Of a stretch of 59,688 nucleotides of DNA, positions 7,669 through 51,166 are shown piece after piece (positions within the stretch are counted from its first letter, which is position 1; each line of letters begins with the position of its first letter). The stretch comes from a bacterium (GTDB lineage: Bacteria; Patescibacteriota; WWE3; UBA101185; UBA10185), in assembly GCA_035358315.1 (NCBI GenBank), contig DAOPPB010000001.1, positions 1 through 59,688 of the forward strand. Direction: 5' to 3'. The notes below the pieces were generated by a model. That model did not search any database. It saw nothing but the letters and a program-made list of their open reading frames with translations, and had not been told where the DNA came from. The translations under genes were made by a program, and so were the position numbers.

Positions 7669-8694
7669 TCAATTAAGAGAAGAAACCCTATCCAAATTGT
7701 CCGAATTTTTGCCGGAATCATTATCTTCCGCAAAAATATCCTTATGGTACTTTTTATGAATATCTCTAAGCTGTTTATTGGTAACATGGGTGTAAATCTG
7801 AGTAGTTGAAACATTGGAATGCCCAAGAAGCTCCTGGACTTCACGAAGATCGGCCCCCTCTGACAAAAGACCGGTGGCATAGGTATGTCTTAGGGTATGA
7901 GGAGTAGCATCAACAGATATTCCGGCTCTTTTCACGTACTTTTTGATAAGTCTTTGAACACTTCTGGGGCTTATTCTTAAAGATTCCCCGTCGAAATCGT
8001 TTTCCTGCATTTTTTTACCTGAATATCTTATAAACAACGGGACAAAAGGATCCGCTCTGGCAGACAAATATCTTCTAAGCCACTTAATGGCTTCCGGAGA
8101 GAGATATACTGTACGAGCTTTTCTTCCTTTACCTACAACAGTAAACTCACCGGTATCCAGATTTATTTCATCACGATTTAACGCAACGAGCTCTGATACC
8201 CGCAAACCCGTACTGTATAATGTTTCAATAATAGCCTTATCCCTGATACCGGACTTTTTATCCAGATTTTGAACTTCAAACAATTTCCTCATTTGTTGAG
8301 AATTCAAAACTTTTGGAACTCTATCTTCAGACTTGCCTAAAATCACTTTTTCCGGGGGGATTATTTCCAAACCTTTTTCCACAACCAAATATTTCAAAAA
8401 TGCCCTCAGAGCGACAAGAAAAGTCTTTTGAGTTGACCTTTTAAACTCCGTATTAGATTTTGAGCTTATTCTTTTATTCAAATTGATACGATATTCCCTG
8501 ACAATGTCATCATTTATGTCTCCGATAGCAAAAACATCTTTTTTCAGGAAATTCCTAGACCATTGACCAAAGTCGGTCAGATAAAAGTGATACATTTTTA
8601 TAGTGTTTTGGGAAAGGTTTTTCTCAATTTCGCAGAATTCAAGATAATCTAAAACGACATCATCAAAATTTGAAGACAAATCTATTTTGGACAT
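7669..8694 (-). CDS. Tyrosine site-specific recombinase, XerC/XerD-like
   Basis: N-terminal SAM-like domain, catalytic region GLRVSELVAL, and HTLRHTYATGLLSEGADLREVQELLGHSNVSTTQIYTHV (R..HxxR..Y signature). Confidence 0.85.
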   Translation of the reverse strand: MSKIDLSSNFDDVVLDYLEFCEIEKNLSQNTIKMYHFYLTDFGQWSRNFLKKDVFAIGDINDDIVREYRINLNKRISSKSNTEFKRSTQKTFLVALRAFLKYLVVEKGLEIIPPEKVILGKSEDRVPKVLNSQQMRKLFEVQNLDKKSGIRDKAIIETLYSTGLRVSELVALNRDEINLDTGEFTVVGKGRKARTVYLSPEAIKWLRRYLSARADPFVPLFIRYSGKKMQENDFDGESLRISPRSVQRLIKKYVKRAGISVDATPHTLRHTYATGLLSEGADLREVQELLGHSNVSTTQIYTHVTNKQLRDIHKKYHKDIFAEDNDSGKNSDNLDRVSSLN

Positions 8695-8990
8695 ATGTTA
8701 TGATTATACGACATATTCCACATTTTCTACATTTGCTTAATTCGCGTAATTTTCTCAGATCTTTCAGACACCGATGCTCGCCCGCTGTCTGATCCAAACT
8801 TTATTTGAATACGATAAAAACATGCAGACGTAAGTGGCGTCAAAATGTGCGGAACCTTGGGAACACTCTCCAAACGATTCTGGAATGGTTTTGTTTTTAA
8901 AAATGCCTTAAAATCGATTCTGGAGCGTCGGTATTATTTTTTGTTGTCACTAAAACAAAAAACAGCATTATACCTGTATGTAAAAGGTGT

Positions 8991-9025
8991 GAAAATAGGA
9001 AAATAGGGGGAAATAGGGGATAGTG
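8991..9025. repeat. Left arm of an imperfect inverted repeat built from AAATAGG(G) modules ending in GGGATAGTG
   Basis: Sequence gaaaatagga aaataggggg aaatagggga tagtg. It mirrors 9790-9820 (cactatccc ta cccta ... cccta). The 9-mer GGGATAGTG is exact in inverted orientation. Confidence 0.5.
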
Positions 9026-9511
9026 TAACAACCGAACGTGAATTGTGATGAATATATACCGCAAAAGGAGGGAAGTAAAAGCGGGAAAAATAGGAAAGCA
9101 AAAGGAGTACAGAAATCCGGAGAGTAGGTGTAAAAATAGATCAATTAATCTTCATTTAATTCAAATCAAATTTAAATAAAAATTATTTTCCTGTAATTGT
9201 TTTCTTATAATTATTGATGGAAATTTAAGAGGATACTTGAGCGGGAAGCGGCTTTAGTCTACAGGGGCAACGTCGTATAATGTATGTTTAACGACGTTAA
9301 GACAGAGGTAAAACCTTATTACAATAGATAAATAAAAAACCCGCCTAAGAAGAGGCGCAAGAAGAGAAGTGAAATATAAACGCGCGTTAATTTATTAATT
9401 CATATTAGGATAATTAAATGAATTAAAATAAACTAATTTCCTAAATTAAGATTTCAGAATTTACGCGCAACCTGATTTTTCTATTTATCTTTTCTTTCCC
9501 CGCAGATAAAG

Positions 9512-9520
9512 TTATCCACA
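9512..9520 (+). promoter_or_regulatory. Perfect DnaA-box consensus TTATCCACA (single copy)
   Basis: Exact 9-mer seen in gttatccaca. I found no second perfect box nearby, so function is uncertain. Confidence 0.3.
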
Positions 9521-9541
9521 TTCCCTACTCCTCCGGAAAAG

Positions 9542-9730
9542 TATGACAATCCTACATTAAAATACTATGACAATATTACAGGAAGAAACCATGACAATCT
9601 TACATTAAATTATCGGTAACAGAACCCAAACATTAAATTCCCCTAAAATACTATGGGACTAAAAAATCGGGGTAAAATAAATAAGCACTCAAACCTATAG
9701 TATGACAAACGTAACTATGACAATCTTACA
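9542..9730 (+). repeat. Iteron-like direct repeats (T/C)ATGACAAT-N2-TACA, 5 copies plus 1 degenerate
   Basis: Copies start at 9542, 9566 and 9590 (exact 24-bp phasing) and at 9701 and 9716. A degenerate copy at 9652 (aaaatactatgggact) shares its left flank with the 9566 copy. ACATTAAA recurs five times across 9554-9840. Confidence 0.65.
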
Positions 9731-9789
9731 TCCAATGTGCCTTTAACATTAAAAATTAAGCTAAGAAATTAAATATATAATGAAAATTG

Positions 9790-9820
9790 CACTATCCCTA
9801 CCCTACTTTTCCCTAATATA
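9790..9820. repeat. Right arm of the imperfect inverted repeat (CACTATCCC + CCCTA modules)
   Basis: See 8991-9025. The arms are about 765 bp apart and enclose the iterons and the DnaA box. Confidence 0.5.
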
Positions 9821-9933
9821 TCAACTTATTTACATTAAATAAAGATTAAAATTTCCAAAAAGAAATGAATTAAAAATAAAACAAGAACCAAAATAAAATT
9901 GTATGTATGCTACCGATGTACATATACGAAAAA

Positions 9934-10743
9934 TTACGGTGCGAAAAACAGCAGGAAAGACAAAAAAACAAGGACGATAGCGATATAGCCCGTTATCATT
10001 CCCTTAGATATTTCATTCTTAAGATGAGCTGAAACATAATTCAAGAGAAAAAGGAGGACTGAAGACACAAATAGAGCTCTCAGAAAATCTTCCGAAGGAA
10101 AAAATGACACCACAAGAGAAGAAGTGAAAATAAAAAACAGAGAAAGAAAACACAGATAAAATCTCTCCCCCACTCCGATCTTTTTAGCATCAGGTTCGAA
10201 TCTGTAAATCCACAATTGATAATAAGTAAATAAAAAAGAAATTACGGCCACTATAATTGATTGCACATAGGGAGAGACATTTATCTTAAAAATACCGGAA
10301 AAAAGGGGTATGGCGACAATTACCTGCAATATTTGACTCCACGTTACGGCAACCCTGTAAAGAGGAATTGTCTCTTCCCTATCCTGTACTACCAAAAAAA
10401 TGTTATCTGCAAGGGAAACTAGATAGTAAACCCCGGCAAAAAAGAAAATAACCATTATTTTAAAAACATTCCCCAAATTAGGATAAAAATGGAGCGATAG
10501 AATAGCACCTCCTAAGACACCCAAGGGCATCAAGATACTGTATAAGAAATTCTCCCGTGTTACCCCCGGATAATGAGATATTAGTACTCCGGTTGTTACC
10601 AAAACCACAGAAAGAAGCGCCAAAATCAAGGGATCGACATCTAATACCCCTTGCGTAAAAATATAGATGAAAACAGCAACCAAAAAAGACTGGATCAGAT
10701 ATTTATTTTTCTTTTCGAGTTCAAGATGAATCTTAGAAAACAT
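9934..10743 (-). CDS. Polytopic integral membrane protein, function unknown
   Basis: 269 aa, almost entirely hydrophobic, with roughly 7-8 predicted TM segments. It sits 2 nt downstream of ruvC in the same orientation. Confidence 0.6.
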   Translation of the reverse strand: MFSKIHLELEKKNKYLIQSFLVAVFIYIFTQGVLDVDPLILALLSVVLVTTGVLISHYPGVTRENFLYSILMPLGVLGGAILSLHFYPNLGNVFKIMVIFFFAGVYYLVSLADNIFLVVQDREETIPLYRVAVTWSQILQVIVAIPLFSGIFKINVSPYVQSIIVAVISFLFTYYQLWIYRFEPDAKKIGVGERFYLCFLSLFFIFTSSLVVSFFPSEDFLRALFVSSVLLFLLNYVSAHLKNEISKGMITGYIAIVLVFLSFLLFFAP

Positions 10744-12649: not shown

Positions 12650-13510
12650 TTATCTCAAATCGTCGTCCTCTAATGCATTGTAAGAAGCTTTATTCTTTTC
12701 CGCGGGGCTACTCTCCTCAATTATTTTTTTACTTCCGGCACTTTCGGAGTCTTTTTTCATCTTTTTATTTACTGAACCCGAAACGTTATTACTATTATTC
12801 AACTTTTTCATACTTTTCGCATTTTTCAAACCCTGCCTAGTAGTATCTTTACCACCATGTTTCAAGGTAAAGGAGTTCCTATCTGCGGAAGCCTTCACTC
12901 CCCTATCCGCATTTTTATGAACATCAGTTTTTAATTTCTTTTTTCCCTCAATCTCAACTGAACTTTTAGCATCTTCGGAATTTTTCAGAACTTTGTCTAA
13001 ACAGGCAAACGGAACTTTAGTATTCTCAGCTGGTATTAGAGCTACAGCACGATCATTTAATTCAGCACTATTGAACTCTGCAGAAGCATCGGATATTTTG
13101 TAAGAGCCCACATCTGAAAGCAAATACCACTTACCTTCTTTTTTCGTCAAAACGCCTTCGATTACTCTTCTTTCTACTCTATCAATCTGCTTAAATATCT
13201 GTCTGCCTGAATCCGTAAAAACTTTCAAAATATCCCCGTAAACAAGCTTTGATTTCGCAGCGTAATTTGGAGGAACCTCAGTTTTCCTGCCATCTTGGGC
13301 TACCAGATACTGACCGTCAAATACACCTTCCGTTCCTGGAATACTTTGATAATGAGCCTTCCTTTCTTCTCTTTCCATATTATCAATGATATTCTGAATC
13401 TTCTCTATTTGGTTCAAAGCGGACTGCAAGAGATTTTTTACATTTTCATATTTTTTCTGATAAGTGCCCGTAAAATCAAATTCATCCTTATTTTTTTCCT
13501 GCTCTTTCAT
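12650..13510 (-). CDS. Hypothetical protein (coiled-coil N-terminus, Lys/Ser-rich C-terminus), translationally adjacent to the upstream ATPase
   Basis: 286 aa with no motif I recognise. It starts 3 nt after the stop of the 844-aa ATPase gene. Confidence 0.5.
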   Translation of the reverse strand: MKEQEKNKDEFDFTGTYQKKYENVKNLLQSALNQIEKIQNIIDNMEREERKAHYQSIPGTEGVFDGQYLVAQDGRKTEVPPNYAAKSKLVYGDILKVFTDSGRQIFKQIDRVERRVIEGVLTKKEGKWYLLSDVGSYKISDASAEFNSAELNDRAVALIPAENTKVPFACLDKVLKNSEDAKSSVEIEGKKKLKTDVHKNADRGVKASADRNSFTLKHGGKDTTRQGLKNAKSMKKLNNSNNVSGSVNKKMKKDSESAGSKKIIEESSPAEKNKASYNALEDDDLR

Positions 13511-13512
13511 TT

Positions 13513-16047
13513 TTATTTCTCCTCTGTACTCTCAAAATTATTACCTATTGAACCATTTATGTTCTTACCGGAATATTCTTGAGCAATTGCCATCCCCTTG
13601 TCAAATCTGGTCGACAGCCACTTGTTAACCTTAGACTCTACCTTTTCTCTCGGCACACCATATTTCTCCCTGCTCCTCTGCAATACTTTTTCTTTATTTC
13701 CTGTTTTTTTAATTAAAAACTCATCATCCCAAGGAACTAATATTTTAGCTGAAAAAGGATGGGAAGTCATCCCGTCCACCATCAATTTCATATAAACCTG
13801 GAATCTCTCAAGAGAAATAATATCCTCCTCGCTGAAATACGGAGCGAATTCTTTTGCCAATTCTTTGGCATCGGGAGCACCTAAGGCAAAGGTAATTATT
13901 GTGCCCACATTTCCGTATACGGCCTTTAAAAGATCTTCCGGGAGCTGACCAGTAAACTGATGTGTCAAATTCAGACCCAATTTATACTTTCTTGACTCAG
14001 ACAAAATCTCTTCAAAACTTCCGGTGGCAAAATTCTGGAACTCATCAACATAAAGATAGAACGGTCTTCTTTTTTCATTCGGAATTTTAGCTCTTTGAAG
14101 AGCATAAAACTGTATTCTGGATACGAGAAGCGCCCCCAACAAATTAGCGTTATCCTGCCCTATCTTCCCTTTTGACAAGTTCATAAGAAGTATTTTTCCC
14201 GAATTCATAGCATCCCAAATGTCTATTGTGGATTTTCTCTGACCCAGTATATTTCTAATAGTAGTGGAAGCTAAAAATCTATTAACTTTATTTTGTATAG
14301 GAGAAATTGCCTCCGTAACAAGTTTTTGATTTCCCTTCATTTGCTTAAACTCTTCCGACCAAAACTTTTGCACAACAGGATCTTTTACAAAATGCAAAAT
14401 ATAATTAAGATAATTTTGGTCTTCTAATAACCTGGTAATTCCAAGCATTGTAGTCCCAGGAACTTCCAACAAGGTCAGAACACAGTAATTTAACAGGTAT
14501 TCTAATCTAGGTCCCCATGAAAAATCGAAATGCTGTTTTATTGCAGAAACAAGACCGGACGCCATCAAGTTCTTCTGAGACGGGTCATCAATCTCGAGCA
14601 GATTAAGCCCGACGGGATATTCCGTATCCGAAGGATCCAAATATATTACATCTTCTATTCTGTTGTCGGGAATTCTATCCAAAACATTTTCAATAGTTTC
14701 TCCGTGAGGATCTAAAATAGCCGCCCCCTCACCATTGGCTATATCCTGAGCCATCATGGTAACAAAGAGAGATGATTTTCCGGTTCCGGACTTTCCAATT
14801 ACATAAACATGTCTCAACCTATCATCGTTGTCATTTCTTATACCGAATTTTACTGATTGATTTCTGTAAACGGTTTCGCCCAAGTAGGTGCAATTTTCCG
14901 TCGGCAGATTAGCAGGAGGTTCAGATTTTCTTGAATATACCCAGGATATGTTTGGCGTATCTATATGGGAAAGAGGAAAATGATAAATAGTTGCAAGTTC
15001 CTCAGTATTTAGAATAATGGCTCTATTGGGATCAAACTCTCTTTTTTTGTAAGCATTTAGTGCTAATTCTTTATTATCCTCATTTTTGCTGATTAAGCTG
15101 TTTATACTGGTTCCGGAAAATTGCTCAAAAGAAGCTATTATTCCTCTTAAATTGGCATCTACCCGAGACTCTTCCGGCGCGGCAGAAACAACTCTGATAA
15201 CGGCTTCAAAACCCATTCTGGAAAGTTTATTTTCTATGGACTTTAATTCCGTTTCTTTAGCGGCGCTTATCTTAGGAGTAGTTGTATATTTACCCTTTAC
15301 CTCAACTCCTTCTGCAGGGCGGGTAAATAAACCAACTATAACTCCTGTAAATATTTCTGAAATCTCTTTCTTCACAGTATCAAAAAAGATATTGAACGTA
15401 CTCTTTACTTTCCCGGGATCTTGCCCCTCTCTGACTTTGTTTACATAATCAAAACCCTCCTGTTGCCATTTATCAGCAATTGGCCTGGTCAGAATTTGCA
15501 ACCATACTTCTTCACTTTTGGATAAAGTAGATACCGAGGAAGACAGAGAGGACATAGGATCGGTCTCAAAATCCCTAAAACTTCTTATCGGGTAATAATC
15601 CGGCTTGGAGAAAACCAAGCTTGATACTTTATAATTTATATGAGACGGATTTATCGCAGGGGTATAGTCGGATACTACGTTAACTATAGCTGTCGGATAT
15701 TGTGCGTATATCTGGCTTTCCACAAACTCGAGCACACTTAACGGAGTAGTAACATAAAATCTTATACCTCTCTCCCCAGAAGCCACCATTTCAAAAGAAA
15801 TATGCTCTTGAAGATCGGGATCGGATTTTAACAATCCGTGCAGTGCAGAAAACATATTCTCCGCACTTAAAGAAGAAGCCTGTATATCCCGCTTCTGGTC
15901 TTCATTCCTACTTAGCTGTACTTCCAATATTCCCCTATCATCGGATTTTTTATCTCTCGATTTTTCGCGCTGCCTAATACGCAGATACACACCAAGCAGT
16001 ATTGCTATTACAGGCAAAATTAAAATTAAATAGTTGTTTAAAGTCAT
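13513..16047 (-). CDS. Membrane-anchored TraD/VirD4/HerA-like P-loop ATPase
   Basis: N-terminal TM (LILILPVIAILLGVYL), Walker A VIGKSGTGKSS followed by AILDPHGE, and Walker B FYLYVDEFQNFAT followed by RKYKLGLNLTHQ. This arrangement is typical of coupling-protein / DUF87-like ATPases. Confidence 0.7.
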   Translation of the reverse strand: MTLNNYLILILPVIAILLGVYLRIRQREKSRDKKSDDRGILEVQLSRNEDQKRDIQASSLSAENMFSALHGLLKSDPDLQEHISFEMVASGERGIRFYVTTPLSVLEFVESQIYAQYPTAIVNVVSDYTPAINPSHINYKVSSLVFSKPDYYPIRSFRDFETDPMSSLSSSVSTLSKSEEVWLQILTRPIADKWQQEGFDYVNKVREGQDPGKVKSTFNIFFDTVKKEISEIFTGVIVGLFTRPAEGVEVKGKYTTTPKISAAKETELKSIENKLSRMGFEAVIRVVSAAPEESRVDANLRGIIASFEQFSGTSINSLISKNEDNKELALNAYKKREFDPNRAIILNTEELATIYHFPLSHIDTPNISWVYSRKSEPPANLPTENCTYLGETVYRNQSVKFGIRNDNDDRLRHVYVIGKSGTGKSSLFVTMMAQDIANGEGAAILDPHGETIENVLDRIPDNRIEDVIYLDPSDTEYPVGLNLLEIDDPSQKNLMASGLVSAIKQHFDFSWGPRLEYLLNYCVLTLLEVPGTTMLGITRLLEDQNYLNYILHFVKDPVVQKFWSEEFKQMKGNQKLVTEAISPIQNKVNRFLASTTIRNILGQRKSTIDIWDAMNSGKILLMNLSKGKIGQDNANLLGALLVSRIQFYALQRAKIPNEKRRPFYLYVDEFQNFATGSFEEILSESRKYKLGLNLTHQFTGQLPEDLLKAVYGNVGTIITFALGAPDAKELAKEFAPYFSEEDIISLERFQVYMKLMVDGMTSHPFSAKILVPWDDEFLIKKTGNKEKVLQRSREKYGVPREKVESKVNKWLSTRFDKGMAIAQEYSGKNINGSIGNNFESTEEK

Positions 16048-50772: not shown

Positions 50773-51166
50773 ATTATTTCGCTAAGTCTTGGCTTATTTT
50801 TATCAAACTACAAGACAATATGCTAATCCCAAAAACGGGATCCTTAAAAACACCTCCAAACTATCTATTTTTTAATTAAATACACCACAAATTCCCAAAA
50901 TAACATCCTTATGCTACCTCACCACATTGTCATAATTTTTTTGGCACTCAAAAAATATAACTGACAATAATACTAACATTTAACAATCTGTTAGCCTTAA
51001 CATAGTGCACATTCTTATAACATATTAATTTTTCAAACCAACTTGACATTTCTAGTATATACCCAACACTTAAAAATTTGCAAAAACTTATACCACAAAC
51101 AAATAGTTACAGCAATGAGAAAAAGTCGGATTGAGATTTTATTCTTAAAACAACAAAGAAACAGGA

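What the first reader, a model, noticed from the sequence alone, without database searches (positions are those of the whole stretch)
9542..9730. Iteron-like array: TATGACAAT repeats with exact 24-bp phasing in a gene desert next to a tyrosine recombinase
(T/C)ATGACAAT-NN-TACA occurs at 9542, 9566 and 9590, exactly 24 bp apart (about two helical turns). It occurs again at 9701 and 9716, with a degenerate copy at 9652. ACATTAAA is interleaved with it. Phased short direct repeats of this kind are typical of iterons of Rep-dependent origins, of partition or centromere sites, or of multimeric regulator binding sites. One perfect DnaA box (9512-9520) lies 22 bp upstream of the first copy. A related string (reverse complement TATGACAATGTG at about 50926-50937, and CTGACAATAATAC at about 50961) appears in the other G-poor intergenic region at 50773-51166.
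Basis: seen in the sequence. Interest (0 to 1): 0.6.

Follow-up and report, generated by a model that had tools for sequence, protein, structure and literature searches.

The report
Conserved protein-site array beside dif
The phased TATGACAA repeats are real and conserved across a whole class of tiny uncultured bacteria (WWE3). They are not a replication origin: with one DnaA box they form a fixed block of protein-binding sites beside the chromosome's dif-like Xer recombination site, and the protein and purpose are unknown.

Summary
Observation confirmed. YATGACAAT-NN-TACA stands at 9542, 9566 and 9590 (24-bp phase) and at 9716, with a variant at 9701. These are the only copies of that 15-mer in the 645-kb genome.

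The origin reading is rejected:
- dnaA and a cluster of four perfect DnaA boxes lie on another contig.
- Genes and GC skew converge on this gap, which is terminus-type polarity. Origin polarity would be the reverse.
- No Rep gene was found.

About 250 bp to the left, at 9270-9297, lies a 28-bp dif-like site next to a Xer-family gene. It has 11-6-11 architecture and is single-copy. Its 25-bp core (9271-9295) matches 75 of 85 family genomes at up to 3 mismatches, most of them exactly.

Oriented on that core, the same order recurs across class WWE3: AT-rich tract, GTTATCCACA, then 2-5 TATGACAA units, always on the same side and strand. Unit spacing is mostly 23-25 bp, and the box lies mostly 26-29 bp (mode 28) before the first unit. 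No RNA family or consensus RNA fold fits.

Best reading: a binding-site array for an unknown protein, together with DnaA, forming one arm of the dif module. I rank an accessory role in Xer recombination first (about 0.33) and a polar replication-fork barrier second (about 0.22).

This scan had already met the same module in other WWE3 genomes (e1-1287268, e1-886455). I found no published description.

The parts
7669..8694 (-). Xer-family tyrosine recombinase gene (341 aa)
   Evidence: Pfam Phage_integrase plus SAM-like N domain. NCBIfam XerC/XerD about 250 bits, below the equivalog cut-offs. Linked to the core in 17 of 18 loci that encode relatives and syntenic in 11 genera.
8703..8712 (-). 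Copy of the core's left arm (GTCGTATAAT) overlapping a TATAAT 8 nt before the xer start codon
   Evidence: Sequence. Exact in most genomes of this genus; 18 of 55 loci at up to 1 mismatch, against 1 of 55 for the reversed control. Suggests Xer binding at its own promoter (inferred).
8903..8957 (.). Conserved block AATCGATTCTRG ... TTGTTGT-A--AACAA
   Evidence: Conserved in the genus alignment. AATCGATYCTAG-like in about half of the class loci at -215 to -476 from the core. The palindrome is genus-only. Role unknown.
9270..9297 (+). dif-like core: ACGTCGTATAA / TGTATG / TTTAACGACGT (11-6-11)
   Evidence: Arms match in 9 of 11 positions as inverted repeats. The 25-mer is single-copy, found in 75 of 85 family and 88 of 134 class genomes at up to 3 mismatches, mostly 0; reversed control 0. 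Arm changes keep the dyad, e.g. GTCGTTAAA-TGTATG-TTTAACGAC.
9385..9470 (.). AT-rich spacer with TTAATTAAT-type words
   Evidence: AATTAAT and TAATTAA recur at +80 to +170 from the core in 30-31 of 52 loci. The sequence is otherwise conserved only within the genus.
9495..9540 (+). CTTTCCCCGCA, then perfect DnaA box (9512-9520), then TTCCCTACTCCTCCGG
   Evidence: GTTATCCACA (up to 1 mismatch) lies at +196 to +282 from the core in 47 of about 55 loci. Invariant in the genus.
9542..9604 (+). Proximal array: three TATGACAAT-NN-TACA units in 24-bp phase (9542, 9566, 9590)
   Evidence: Homologous units lie at the same place in relatives.
9649..9730 (+). Distal sub-array: TACTATGGG (9649-9657), AAGCACTC (9683-9690), CCTATAG (9694-9700), then units at 9701 and 9716
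   Evidence: TACTATARG ... TAGCACTC ... CCTATAGTATGACAAACGTAC is conserved in the genus and family. CCTATAG is concentrated at about +360. It sits between units in other genera.
9787..9810 (.). Conserved block TTGCACTAT..CT.CCCCACT (TAGGG-type module on the minus strand)
   Evidence: Genus alignment. Mirrors GGGGAAATAGGGGATAG at 9007-9022 on the plus strand (inverted repeats I16, I20, I21). Role unknown.
9934..10743 (-). 269-aa multi-pass membrane protein gene whose 3' end faces the array; ruvC and yebC follow
   Evidence: Synteny conserved in 11 genera.

Best explanation
**Shown.**
- The repeats are a conserved array of short DNA sites with consensus AAnTATGACAAwcnTAC, 2-5 copies, mostly 23-25 bp apart and all on one strand.
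- The first unit follows a perfect DnaA box, most often by 26-29 bp.
- The box-plus-array block lies about 200-450 bp to one fixed side of a single-copy 28-bp dif-like site, next to a Xer-family gene.
- This holds throughout class WWE3 of the Patescibacteria.
- The block sits where genes and GC skew converge. It is not an origin.

**Inferred.**
- The units bind an unidentified sequence-specific DNA-binding protein, and the box binds DnaA. Together they build a polar nucleoprotein complex that acts in cis on the dif site.
- The role I rank first is an accessory (architectural) arm of the Xer synapse. It would control when, or between which partners, recombination at dif occurs. This is the job that the accessory sequences with PepA plus ArgR or ArcA do at plasmid cer and psi, and it would use DnaA as a borrowed host factor, as at the Tn5/IS50 end (from my own knowledge).

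**How likely.** The general statement, a protein-binding arm of the dif module and not an origin, is about 0.85. The specific accessory-arm mechanism is about 0.33, and that is the confidence given here.
For: - The repeats are non-random and unique to this locus.
- The motif, its phase, its strand and its side relative to the asymmetric core are kept in 55 distinct loci across several families. Flanking proteins are only 30-73% identical.
- The phased pair TATGACAA-N14-18-TATGACAA occurs in 57 of 134 class genomes, always at one locus beside the core. The reversed control gave 1 hit.
- The array stays with the core even in family f14, where the core has drifted and the DnaA box has moved.
- One-sided placement, fixed orientation and a bounded distance to the core (box at +196 to +282) are typical of accessory arms of site-specific recombination sites. 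The review of cer and accessory factors is PMC5357621.
- There is no RNA signal. Rfam has no hit even at E<10, and RNAalifold gives energy 0 on both strands across the array.
- The core meets the sequence criteria of a dif site.
Against: - No chromosomal dif studied so far needs accessory sequences. This genome has a complete FtsK with a gamma domain, the usual controller of Xer.
- About 200 bp of AT-rich DNA separate the array from the core, and the array lies on the side of the better-conserved arm. At cer and psi the accessory DNA abuts the XerC arm.
- The core-to-box distance shows no helical periodicity (p=0.56).
- No PepA homologue was found.
- The binding protein is unidentified, and DnaA binding is inferred only from a perfect, conserved box.
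Confidence: 0.33

Rival explanations
1. Polar replication-fork barrier: a third kind of Ter system. The unknown protein bound to the directly repeated units, perhaps helped by DnaA, would stop the fork that arrives first, so that replication ends at dif.
For: - The array sits at a sharp change of skew and gene strand. In the 878-kb single-contig relative G125 the sign changes at the core, with minus skew for 164 kb to its right.
- All units point one way, as a polar barrier requires.
- In 5 of 5 long assemblies the core lies only 23-30% of the chromosome from dnaA, and the array faces that shorter arm. Unequal arms would need a barrier for forks to meet at dif.
- Tus and RTP show that fork traps have arisen independently, and dif lies inside them (PMC10331603).
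Against: - Sites lie on one side only, whereas known traps have two opposed groups.
- No Tus or RTP homologue was found, although a convergent system would not have one.
- A barrier does not explain the AT-rich spacer, the bounded distance to the core or the DnaA box.
- Skew left of the core in G125 is flat for about 185 kb, so the true fork-fusion point is not pinned down. dnaA may not mark the origin.
Confidence: 0.22
2. A DnaA-linked replication-control element or dormant origin. The AT-rich tract, DnaA box and iteron-like units would be an origin-like module, either used only for rescue or acting as a DnaA-titrating or timing site in the manner of datA or DARS.
For: The order AT-rich tract, GC cluster, perfect DnaA box, phased direct repeats, then an inverted repeat resembles iteron plasmid origins (review PMC4980987 listed). 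The box is conserved class-wide.
Against: - Skew and gene polarity are the reverse of an origin's, with no local inversion at 5-10 kb resolution.
- There is a single box, whereas datA, DARS and oriC have several.
- No conserved DnaA-trio-like triplets adjoin the box (inspection).
- No Rep_3 gene was found.
- No other TATGACAAnnnTAC site exists in the genome to pair with.
Confidence: 0.15
3. Another DNA-level role at the chromosome end region. Candidates are a terminus-anchoring or segregation site (matS- or centromere-like), an SMC-unloading platform, or a protein roadblock that stops convergent transcription from running into dif.
For: The array begins just downstream of the convergent memb269-ruvC-yebC genes. 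Arrays of short direct repeats are typical of centromere-binding proteins (from my own knowledge).
Against: No par or matP-like genes adjoin it. There is a single cluster per genome. Nothing specific points to these roles.
Confidence: 0.1
4. Part of a non-coding RNA or a 3'UTR element of the upstream minus-strand operon.
For: The gap is long and conserved. A terminator-like hairpin on the minus strand lies at 9357-9342.
Against: - There is no Rfam hit at E<10 other than noise. RNase P RNA and tmRNA lie elsewhere.
- RNAalifold finds no consensus fold on either strand. The one exception is a -3.8 kcal/mol pairing of invariant bases with no covariation.
- Conservation falls on short words with a fixed DNA phase, not on paired stems.
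- The hairpin is not conserved.
Confidence: 0.05
5. Remnant of a mobile element (a plasmid ori-res module, or an element integrated at dif) with no present function.
For: Its layout is plasmid-like: a recombinase gene, a resolution-type site and iteron-like repeats.
Against: The same place and synteny hold across a class, with motif-level purifying selection. There is no match in plasmids. Viral-contig hits are unrelated perfect tandem repeats.
Confidence: 0.02

Closest known systems
Accessory sequences of plasmid Xer sites cer and psi (PepA with ArgR or ArcA)
   Same: Non-coding protein-binding DNA on one side of an 11-6/8-11 Xer core, in fixed orientation and using host DNA-binding proteins. 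It acts in cis on recombination.
   Different: This module is chromosomal and about 200 bp from the core. It lies on the side of the better-conserved arm. It is built of phased direct repeats plus a DnaA box. No PepA was found.
Single-module Xer systems: XerS/difSL, XerH/difH, archaeal XerA/dif
   Same: The recombinase gene lies next to its conserved site as one module (PMC5357621).
   Different: This genome has two Xer-family genes, and the core has classic 11-6-11 geometry. None of those systems is described with a DnaA box and a repeat array beside the site.
Iteron origins of plasmids and secondary chromosomes (pSC101, F ori2, RK2, P1, Vibrio ori2)
   Same: DnaA box, AT-rich tract, direct repeats about two helical turns apart, and a nearby inverted repeat.
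   Different: There is no Rep gene beside it or detected in the genome. Skew and gene polarity are terminus-type. Only 8+3 bp of each 24-bp unit are conserved.
Replication fork traps: Tus-Ter (E. coli) and RTP-Ter (B. subtilis)
   Same: Polar protein-binding sites close to dif at a skew switch. In RTP-Ter, neighbouring sites of unequal strength give the polarity (PMC10331603).
   Different: No Tus or RTP homologue was found. Sites lie on one side only and at a fixed short distance from dif.
DnaA box in the Tn5/IS50 outside end (from my own knowledge)
   Same: A single DnaA box used as a host-factor site inside a recombination complex.
   Different: That is a transposase synapse, not a tyrosine recombinase synapse, and it has no repeat array.

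Membership tests
Iteron-type (Rep-dependent) replication origin | Phased direct repeats about two helical turns apart, with a DnaA box and an AT-rich tract | tested here: met
   24-bp phase, box 21 nt upstream, AT-rich 9385-9470.
Iteron-type (Rep-dependent) replication origin | Cognate Rep initiator gene next to the iterons or in the genome | tested here: not met
   The neighbours are xer and the 3' end of a membrane-protein gene. Pfam Rep_3 was not found at E<=0.1 in the 92.5%-complete genome.
Chromosomal oriC | Cluster of DnaA boxes, usually by dnaA | tested here: not met
   There is one box here. Four of the 13 perfect boxes in the genome cluster around dnaA on contig C6.
Chromosomal oriC | Skew minimum and diverging genes | tested here: not met
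   Skew goes from plus to minus and genes converge, in this window and in 11 relatives. In G125 there is 164 kb of minus skew to the right.
dif / Xer site (the neighbouring core, 9270-9297) | Two 11-bp arms of partial dyad symmetry around a 6-bp centre | tested here: met
   ACGTCGTATAA-TGTATG-TTTAACGACGT, 9 of 11 dyad positions. The definition is from PMC5357621.
dif / Xer site (the neighbouring core, 9270-9297) | One copy per chromosome, conserved among relatives, with Xer recombinase(s) and FtsK present | tested here: met
dif / Xer site (the neighbouring core, 9270-9297) | Located at the replication terminus, opposite the origin | tested here: inconclusive
   A sharp plus-to-minus switch falls at the core. 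But the core is 23-30% of the chromosome from dnaA in five assemblies, and skew is flat for about 185 kb to its left in G125.
dif / Xer site (the neighbouring core, 9270-9297) | Xer-catalysed dimer resolution at the site | not testable with these tools
   Needs an experiment.
cer/psi-type accessory sequences | One-sided accessory DNA in fixed orientation relative to the core | tested here: met
   Same side and strand in all oriented loci.
cer/psi-type accessory sequences | Abuts the XerC-side arm; bound by PepA with ArgR or ArcA | tested here: not met
   There is a 200-bp spacer. The array is on the side of the more conserved arm. No Peptidase_M17 was found. ArgR and ArcA were not searched.
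cer/psi-type accessory sequences | Imposes resolution selectivity (a topological filter) | not testable with these tools
   Needs in vitro or in vivo recombination assays and product topology.
Tus-Ter / RTP-Ter fork trap | Terminator protein of the Tus or RTP family | tested here: not met
   PF05472 and PF02334 were not found.
Tus-Ter / RTP-Ter fork trap | Two opposed groups of polar sites flanking the terminus | tested here: not met
   There is one group on one side. No inverted copies lie left of the core beyond chance.
Tus-Ter / RTP-Ter fork trap | Orientation-dependent fork arrest | not testable with these tools
2D gels would be needed.
Structured non-coding RNA | Match to a known family, or a conserved fold with covariation | tested here: not met
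Partition centromere (parC/parS type) | Adjacent partition genes (ParA/ParB, ParM/ParR) | tested here: not met
   The neighbouring genes are xer, a membrane protein, ruvC and yebC. A genome-wide par search was not done.

The most novel reading that the evidence does not exclude
WWE3 bacteria, and perhaps other Patescibacteria where this scan noted DnaA boxes and repeat arrays beside dif-like sites, may tether an origin-like nucleoprotein complex to dif. The complex would be DnaA plus an unknown iteron-binding protein. It would serve as a new, convergently evolved terminus machine, either a one-sided replication-fork trap or a DnaA-dependent switch licensing Xer recombination. It would hold chromosome resolution at a site that lies only about a quarter of the chromosome from dnaA.
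Probability: 0.2. Interest if true: 0.85.

Novelty: new variant of a known kind. Interest (0 to 1): 0.6.

Why it matters
How replication ends and how sister chromosomes are resolved is known in detail for only a few model bacteria. Only two fork-trap systems (Tus, RTP) and a handful of Xer variants are described. Here a whole class of ultra-small, uncultured bacteria keeps about 0.8 kb of non-coding DNA in a streamlined genome. In it a dif-like site is joined to a DnaA box and a phased site array. That points to an undescribed protein and a new link between DnaA and events at dif. It also gives a precise DNA bait (AAnTATGACAAwcnTAC x3 at 24 bp) for finding that protein. The off-centre position of the site relative to dnaA raises a testable question about replichore balance in these organisms.

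Tried and rejected
- **Origin reading.** Rejected on DnaA-box clustering elsewhere, skew and gene polarity, and absence of Rep.
- **Known RNA.** Rfam at gathering threshold and at E<10 gave only tRNAs or noise. RNase P RNA and tmRNA lie on other contigs. RNAalifold with column shuffles found no fold (one search was a script error).
- **Small ORF starting at the box (MWIT...).** Rejected by inspection of the alignment. The frame and length are not conserved among relatives, and only the nucleotides are.
- **KOPS-like reading of the flanking TAGGG modules.** A search for strand-skewed 7- and 8-mers pointing at the core in G125 and in this contig gave only generic purine-rich coding-strand words. 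Inconclusive.
- **TATGACAA as a genome-wide polar motif.** Its frequency is at chance.
- **A palindromic version of the unit left of the core (GTTGTTATAACAAC).** It is genus-only: 13 of 53 loci against 14 of 53 on the control side.
- **Helical phasing of the core-to-box distance.** None found (p=0.56).
- **The module outside WWE3.** The box-plus-unit pattern in 376 other Patescibacteria gave only isolated chance hits with no core. The core 16-mer was at control level.
- **Mobile-element origin.** There was no plasmid match. The 14 viral-contig hits are unrelated perfect tandem repeats.
- **Candidate binder among neighbours.** The syntenic 286-aa basic protein has no Pfam or PDB match.

Full report
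**Setting.** The window is a whole 59,688-bp contig (C1) of a 645-kb genome in 29 contigs, 92.5% complete, GC 37%. Records of close Xer relatives are labelled candidate division WWE3 or Patescibacteria. The finding lies in a 1.24-kb ORF-free gap, 8695-9933. On its left is a Xer-family tyrosine recombinase gene (7669-8694, minus strand). On its right is the 3' end of a 269-aa membrane-protein gene (9934-10743, minus strand), followed by ruvC and yebC. gyrA and rnhB lie further left on the plus strand.

Units stand at 9542, 9566 and 9590, exactly 24 bp apart, and at 9716, with a variant at 9701. YATGACAAT occurs 6 times in the window against 0.99 expected, and none of 100 shuffles reached that. 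The 15-mer with TACA occurs four times in the genome, all here. The perfect DnaA box is at 9512-9520. There are four corrections:
- The 9701 copy lacks TACA.
- The '9652 copy' is half of a separate conserved CTATAG-type inverted repeat.
- ACATTAAA is private to this genome.
- The strings near 50.9 kb are at chance level (14 genome-wide against about 13.6 expected) and sit in an ordinary upstream region.

**It is not an origin.**
- dnaA lies on contig C6, and four of the 13 perfect DnaA boxes in the genome cluster around it. The box here is one of nine scattered singletons.
- In this window GC skew is positive up to about 8 kb and negative from there on, and genes converge on the gap.
- In 11 relatives from different genera, oriented on the core described below, genes are mostly plus-strand on the left and minus-strand on the right. 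Skew is negative on the right in 11 of 11 and positive on the left in 9 of 11. Local synteny is conserved, so these 11 cases are not independent.
- In the 878,109-bp single-contig relative G125, about 44% of the genome was sampled. Skew is positive from about 630 kb through the contig ends, taken here as joined in a circle, to about 245 kb. It is flat from 270 to 445 kb, changes sign at the core (456,298), and is negative up to about 620 kb.
- That is terminus-type polarity, the reverse of an origin's.
- No Rep_3 initiator was found.

**What lies beside the array.** A BLAST of the gap against 40 relatives showed that it is conserved in 13 of 13 genomes of the genus. A 26-nt stretch (9270-9295) is 96-100% identical far beyond the genus. 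It is the heart of a 28-bp site, ACGTCGTATAA-TGTATG-TTTAACGACGT (9270-9297), with 11-bp arms of partial dyad symmetry around a 6-bp centre. This is the geometry that defines dif (PMC5357621).
- The 25-mer is single-copy. It is found in 75 of 85 family genomes and 88 of 134 class genomes at up to 3 mismatches, mostly with none. The reversed control gave none.
- Variants keep the dyad, for example GTCGTTAAA-TGTATG-TTTAACGAC.
- It lies next to the Xer gene in 17 of 18 loci that encode relatives.
- The genome has a second Xer-family gene on C3 and a full FtsK with a gamma domain.
- A copy of the left arm (GTCGTATAAT, 8712-8703, minus strand) overlaps a TATAAT 8 nt before the xer start codon. It is exact in most genomes of the genus: 18 of 55 loci against 1 of 55 for the reversed control. 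This suggests autoregulation and that this Xer binds that arm.

**The array is part of a conserved module.** Oriented on the core, 55 distinct loci show the same order:
- an AT-rich tract with TTAATTAAT words at +80 to +170;
- GTTATCCACA at +196 to +282;
- TATGACAA units from about +220 to +450, always on the same strand and side;
- CCTATAG(T) palindromes among the distal units.

The numbers behind this:
- The 161 units give the consensus AAnTATGACAAwcnTAC.
- Of 109 spacings, 56 are 23-25 bp.
- The box precedes the first unit by 26-29 bp in 23 of 47 loci (mode 28).
- Copy number is 2-5 in 51 of 55 loci.
- The phased pair TATGACAA-N14-18-TATGACAA occurs in 57 of 134 class genomes, always at one locus beside the core. 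The reversed control gave one hit.
- It is also present in family f14, where the core has drifted to GTCGYAATCTGTATATTTAACGAC.
- Flanking proteins are only 30-73% identical over the same span of divergence, so the short words are under selection.
- Outside WWE3 the box-plus-unit pattern gives only isolated chance hits with no core.

**DNA sites, not RNA.** Rfam gives nothing. RNase P RNA and tmRNA lie elsewhere. RNAalifold finds no consensus structure on either strand across the array, apart from a weak pairing of invariant bases with no covariation. Conservation falls on 8+3-bp words at a fixed DNA phase. A possible small ORF starting in the box is not conserved in frame or length (inspection).

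**Mechanism.** It is shown that this is a polar, phased, conserved array, rigidly spaced from a perfect DnaA box and tied to one side of the dif-like core. It is inferred that an unidentified protein binds the units and that DnaA binds the box.

I rank first (0.33) an accessory arm of the Xer synapse, by analogy with cer and psi.
- For: one-sidedness, fixed orientation, bounded distance to the core, and co-inheritance with the core even where the box moves.
- Against: the 200-bp spacer, placement on the side of the better-conserved arm, no helical phasing (p=0.56), no PepA, and a normal FtsK.

I rank second (0.22) a polar fork barrier.
- For: the sharp polarity change at the core, the uniform orientation of the units, and the position of the core in five long assemblies. 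There the core is only 23-30% of the chromosome from dnaA, with the array facing that shorter arm.
- Against: one-sidedness, no Tus or RTP homologue, and a flat skew to the left in G125 that leaves the true fusion point open.

A DnaA-linked control element or dormant origin (0.15), other terminus functions (0.10), an RNA (0.05) and a dead mobile-element remnant (0.02) follow.

**Earlier notes of this scan.** After I had reached this reading, look-ups showed that the same module had been met before in other WWE3 genomes. These were e1-1287268 ('joined to an unexplained replication-origin-like block of repeats') and e1-886455 (TATGACAA and CTATAGGTT repeats). Similar combinations of a dif-like site, a DnaA box and an array were noted in other Patescibacteria classes (e1-2186776, e1-830356, e1-1023849, e1-1028958). 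I confirmed the WWE3 picture independently. I did not test the other classes. e1-1287268 says the site is not at a visible terminus. My data show a sharp terminus-type switch at the core but also an off-centre position, so the two accounts agree only in part.

**Literature.** Searches found no description of dif or of this array in Patescibacteria.

**Limits.** I therefore have no read-depth or RNA evidence and only one sampled whole-genome skew profile.

Noticed in passing
window 9270-9297: A single-copy 28-bp dif-like site (ACGTCGTATAA-TGTATG-TTTAACGACGT) lies beside the xer gene. Its 25-bp core is found in 75 of 85 family genomes at up to 3 mismatches, most of them exact. I found no published description for Patescibacteria.
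   Followed up: yes
window 8703-8712 (minus strand): A copy of the core's left arm, GTCGTATAAT, overlaps a TATAAT 8 nt before the xer ATG, so the mRNA is probably leaderless. It is conserved in this genus. It suggests that Xer represses its own promoter and binds that arm.
   Followed up: partly
relatives G125, G131, G115, G116, G076 (core and dnaA coordinates): The dif-like core lies only 23-30% of the chromosome from dnaA instead of opposite it. In G125 the cumulative skew has a roughly 200-kb plateau ending at the core. Either the replichores are very unequal or dif is off-terminus.
   Followed up: partly
genome contig C6:23332-25273: Four perfect DnaA boxes flank dnaA (one upstream, three in the 578-bp gap after it). 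Yet genes for about 15 kb upstream of dnaA run the same way and skew stays positive. In G125 the skew switch is about 55 kb from dnaA.
   Followed up: partly
window 9007-9022 (+) and 9800-9815, 9523-9530 (-): TAGGG-type modules face each other across the gap (GGGGAAATAGGGGATAG on one side, GTAGGGTAGGGATAG on the other), reminiscent of converging KOPS. A strand-skewed word search was inconclusive.
   Followed up: partly
window 9554, 9602, 9630, 9746, 9832: ACATTAAA occurs five times within 300 bp, against 85 copies counted over both strands of the 645-kb genome. It is not conserved in relatives, so it is a species-specific overlay on the array.
   Followed up: partly
window 12650-16047: A membrane-anchored TraD/VirD4-like ATPase and a 286-aa basic protein with no family match keep a fixed place 3-6 kb from the core in 11 genera. 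A link to the dif module is untested.
   Followed up: no
window 9342-9357 (minus strand): A terminator-like hairpin (CGCCT-CTTCTT-AGGCG followed by a T run) lies 50 nt from the core. It is not conserved in relatives.
   Followed up: no
L112 (IMGVR_UViG_3300037493_000618), near the contig end: A viral contig carries four 25-bp units AAAAGTATGACAAAACATACTTTTT next to AT-rich DNA. This looks like an iteron-type array with a similar core word. It is probably unrelated.
   Followed up: no
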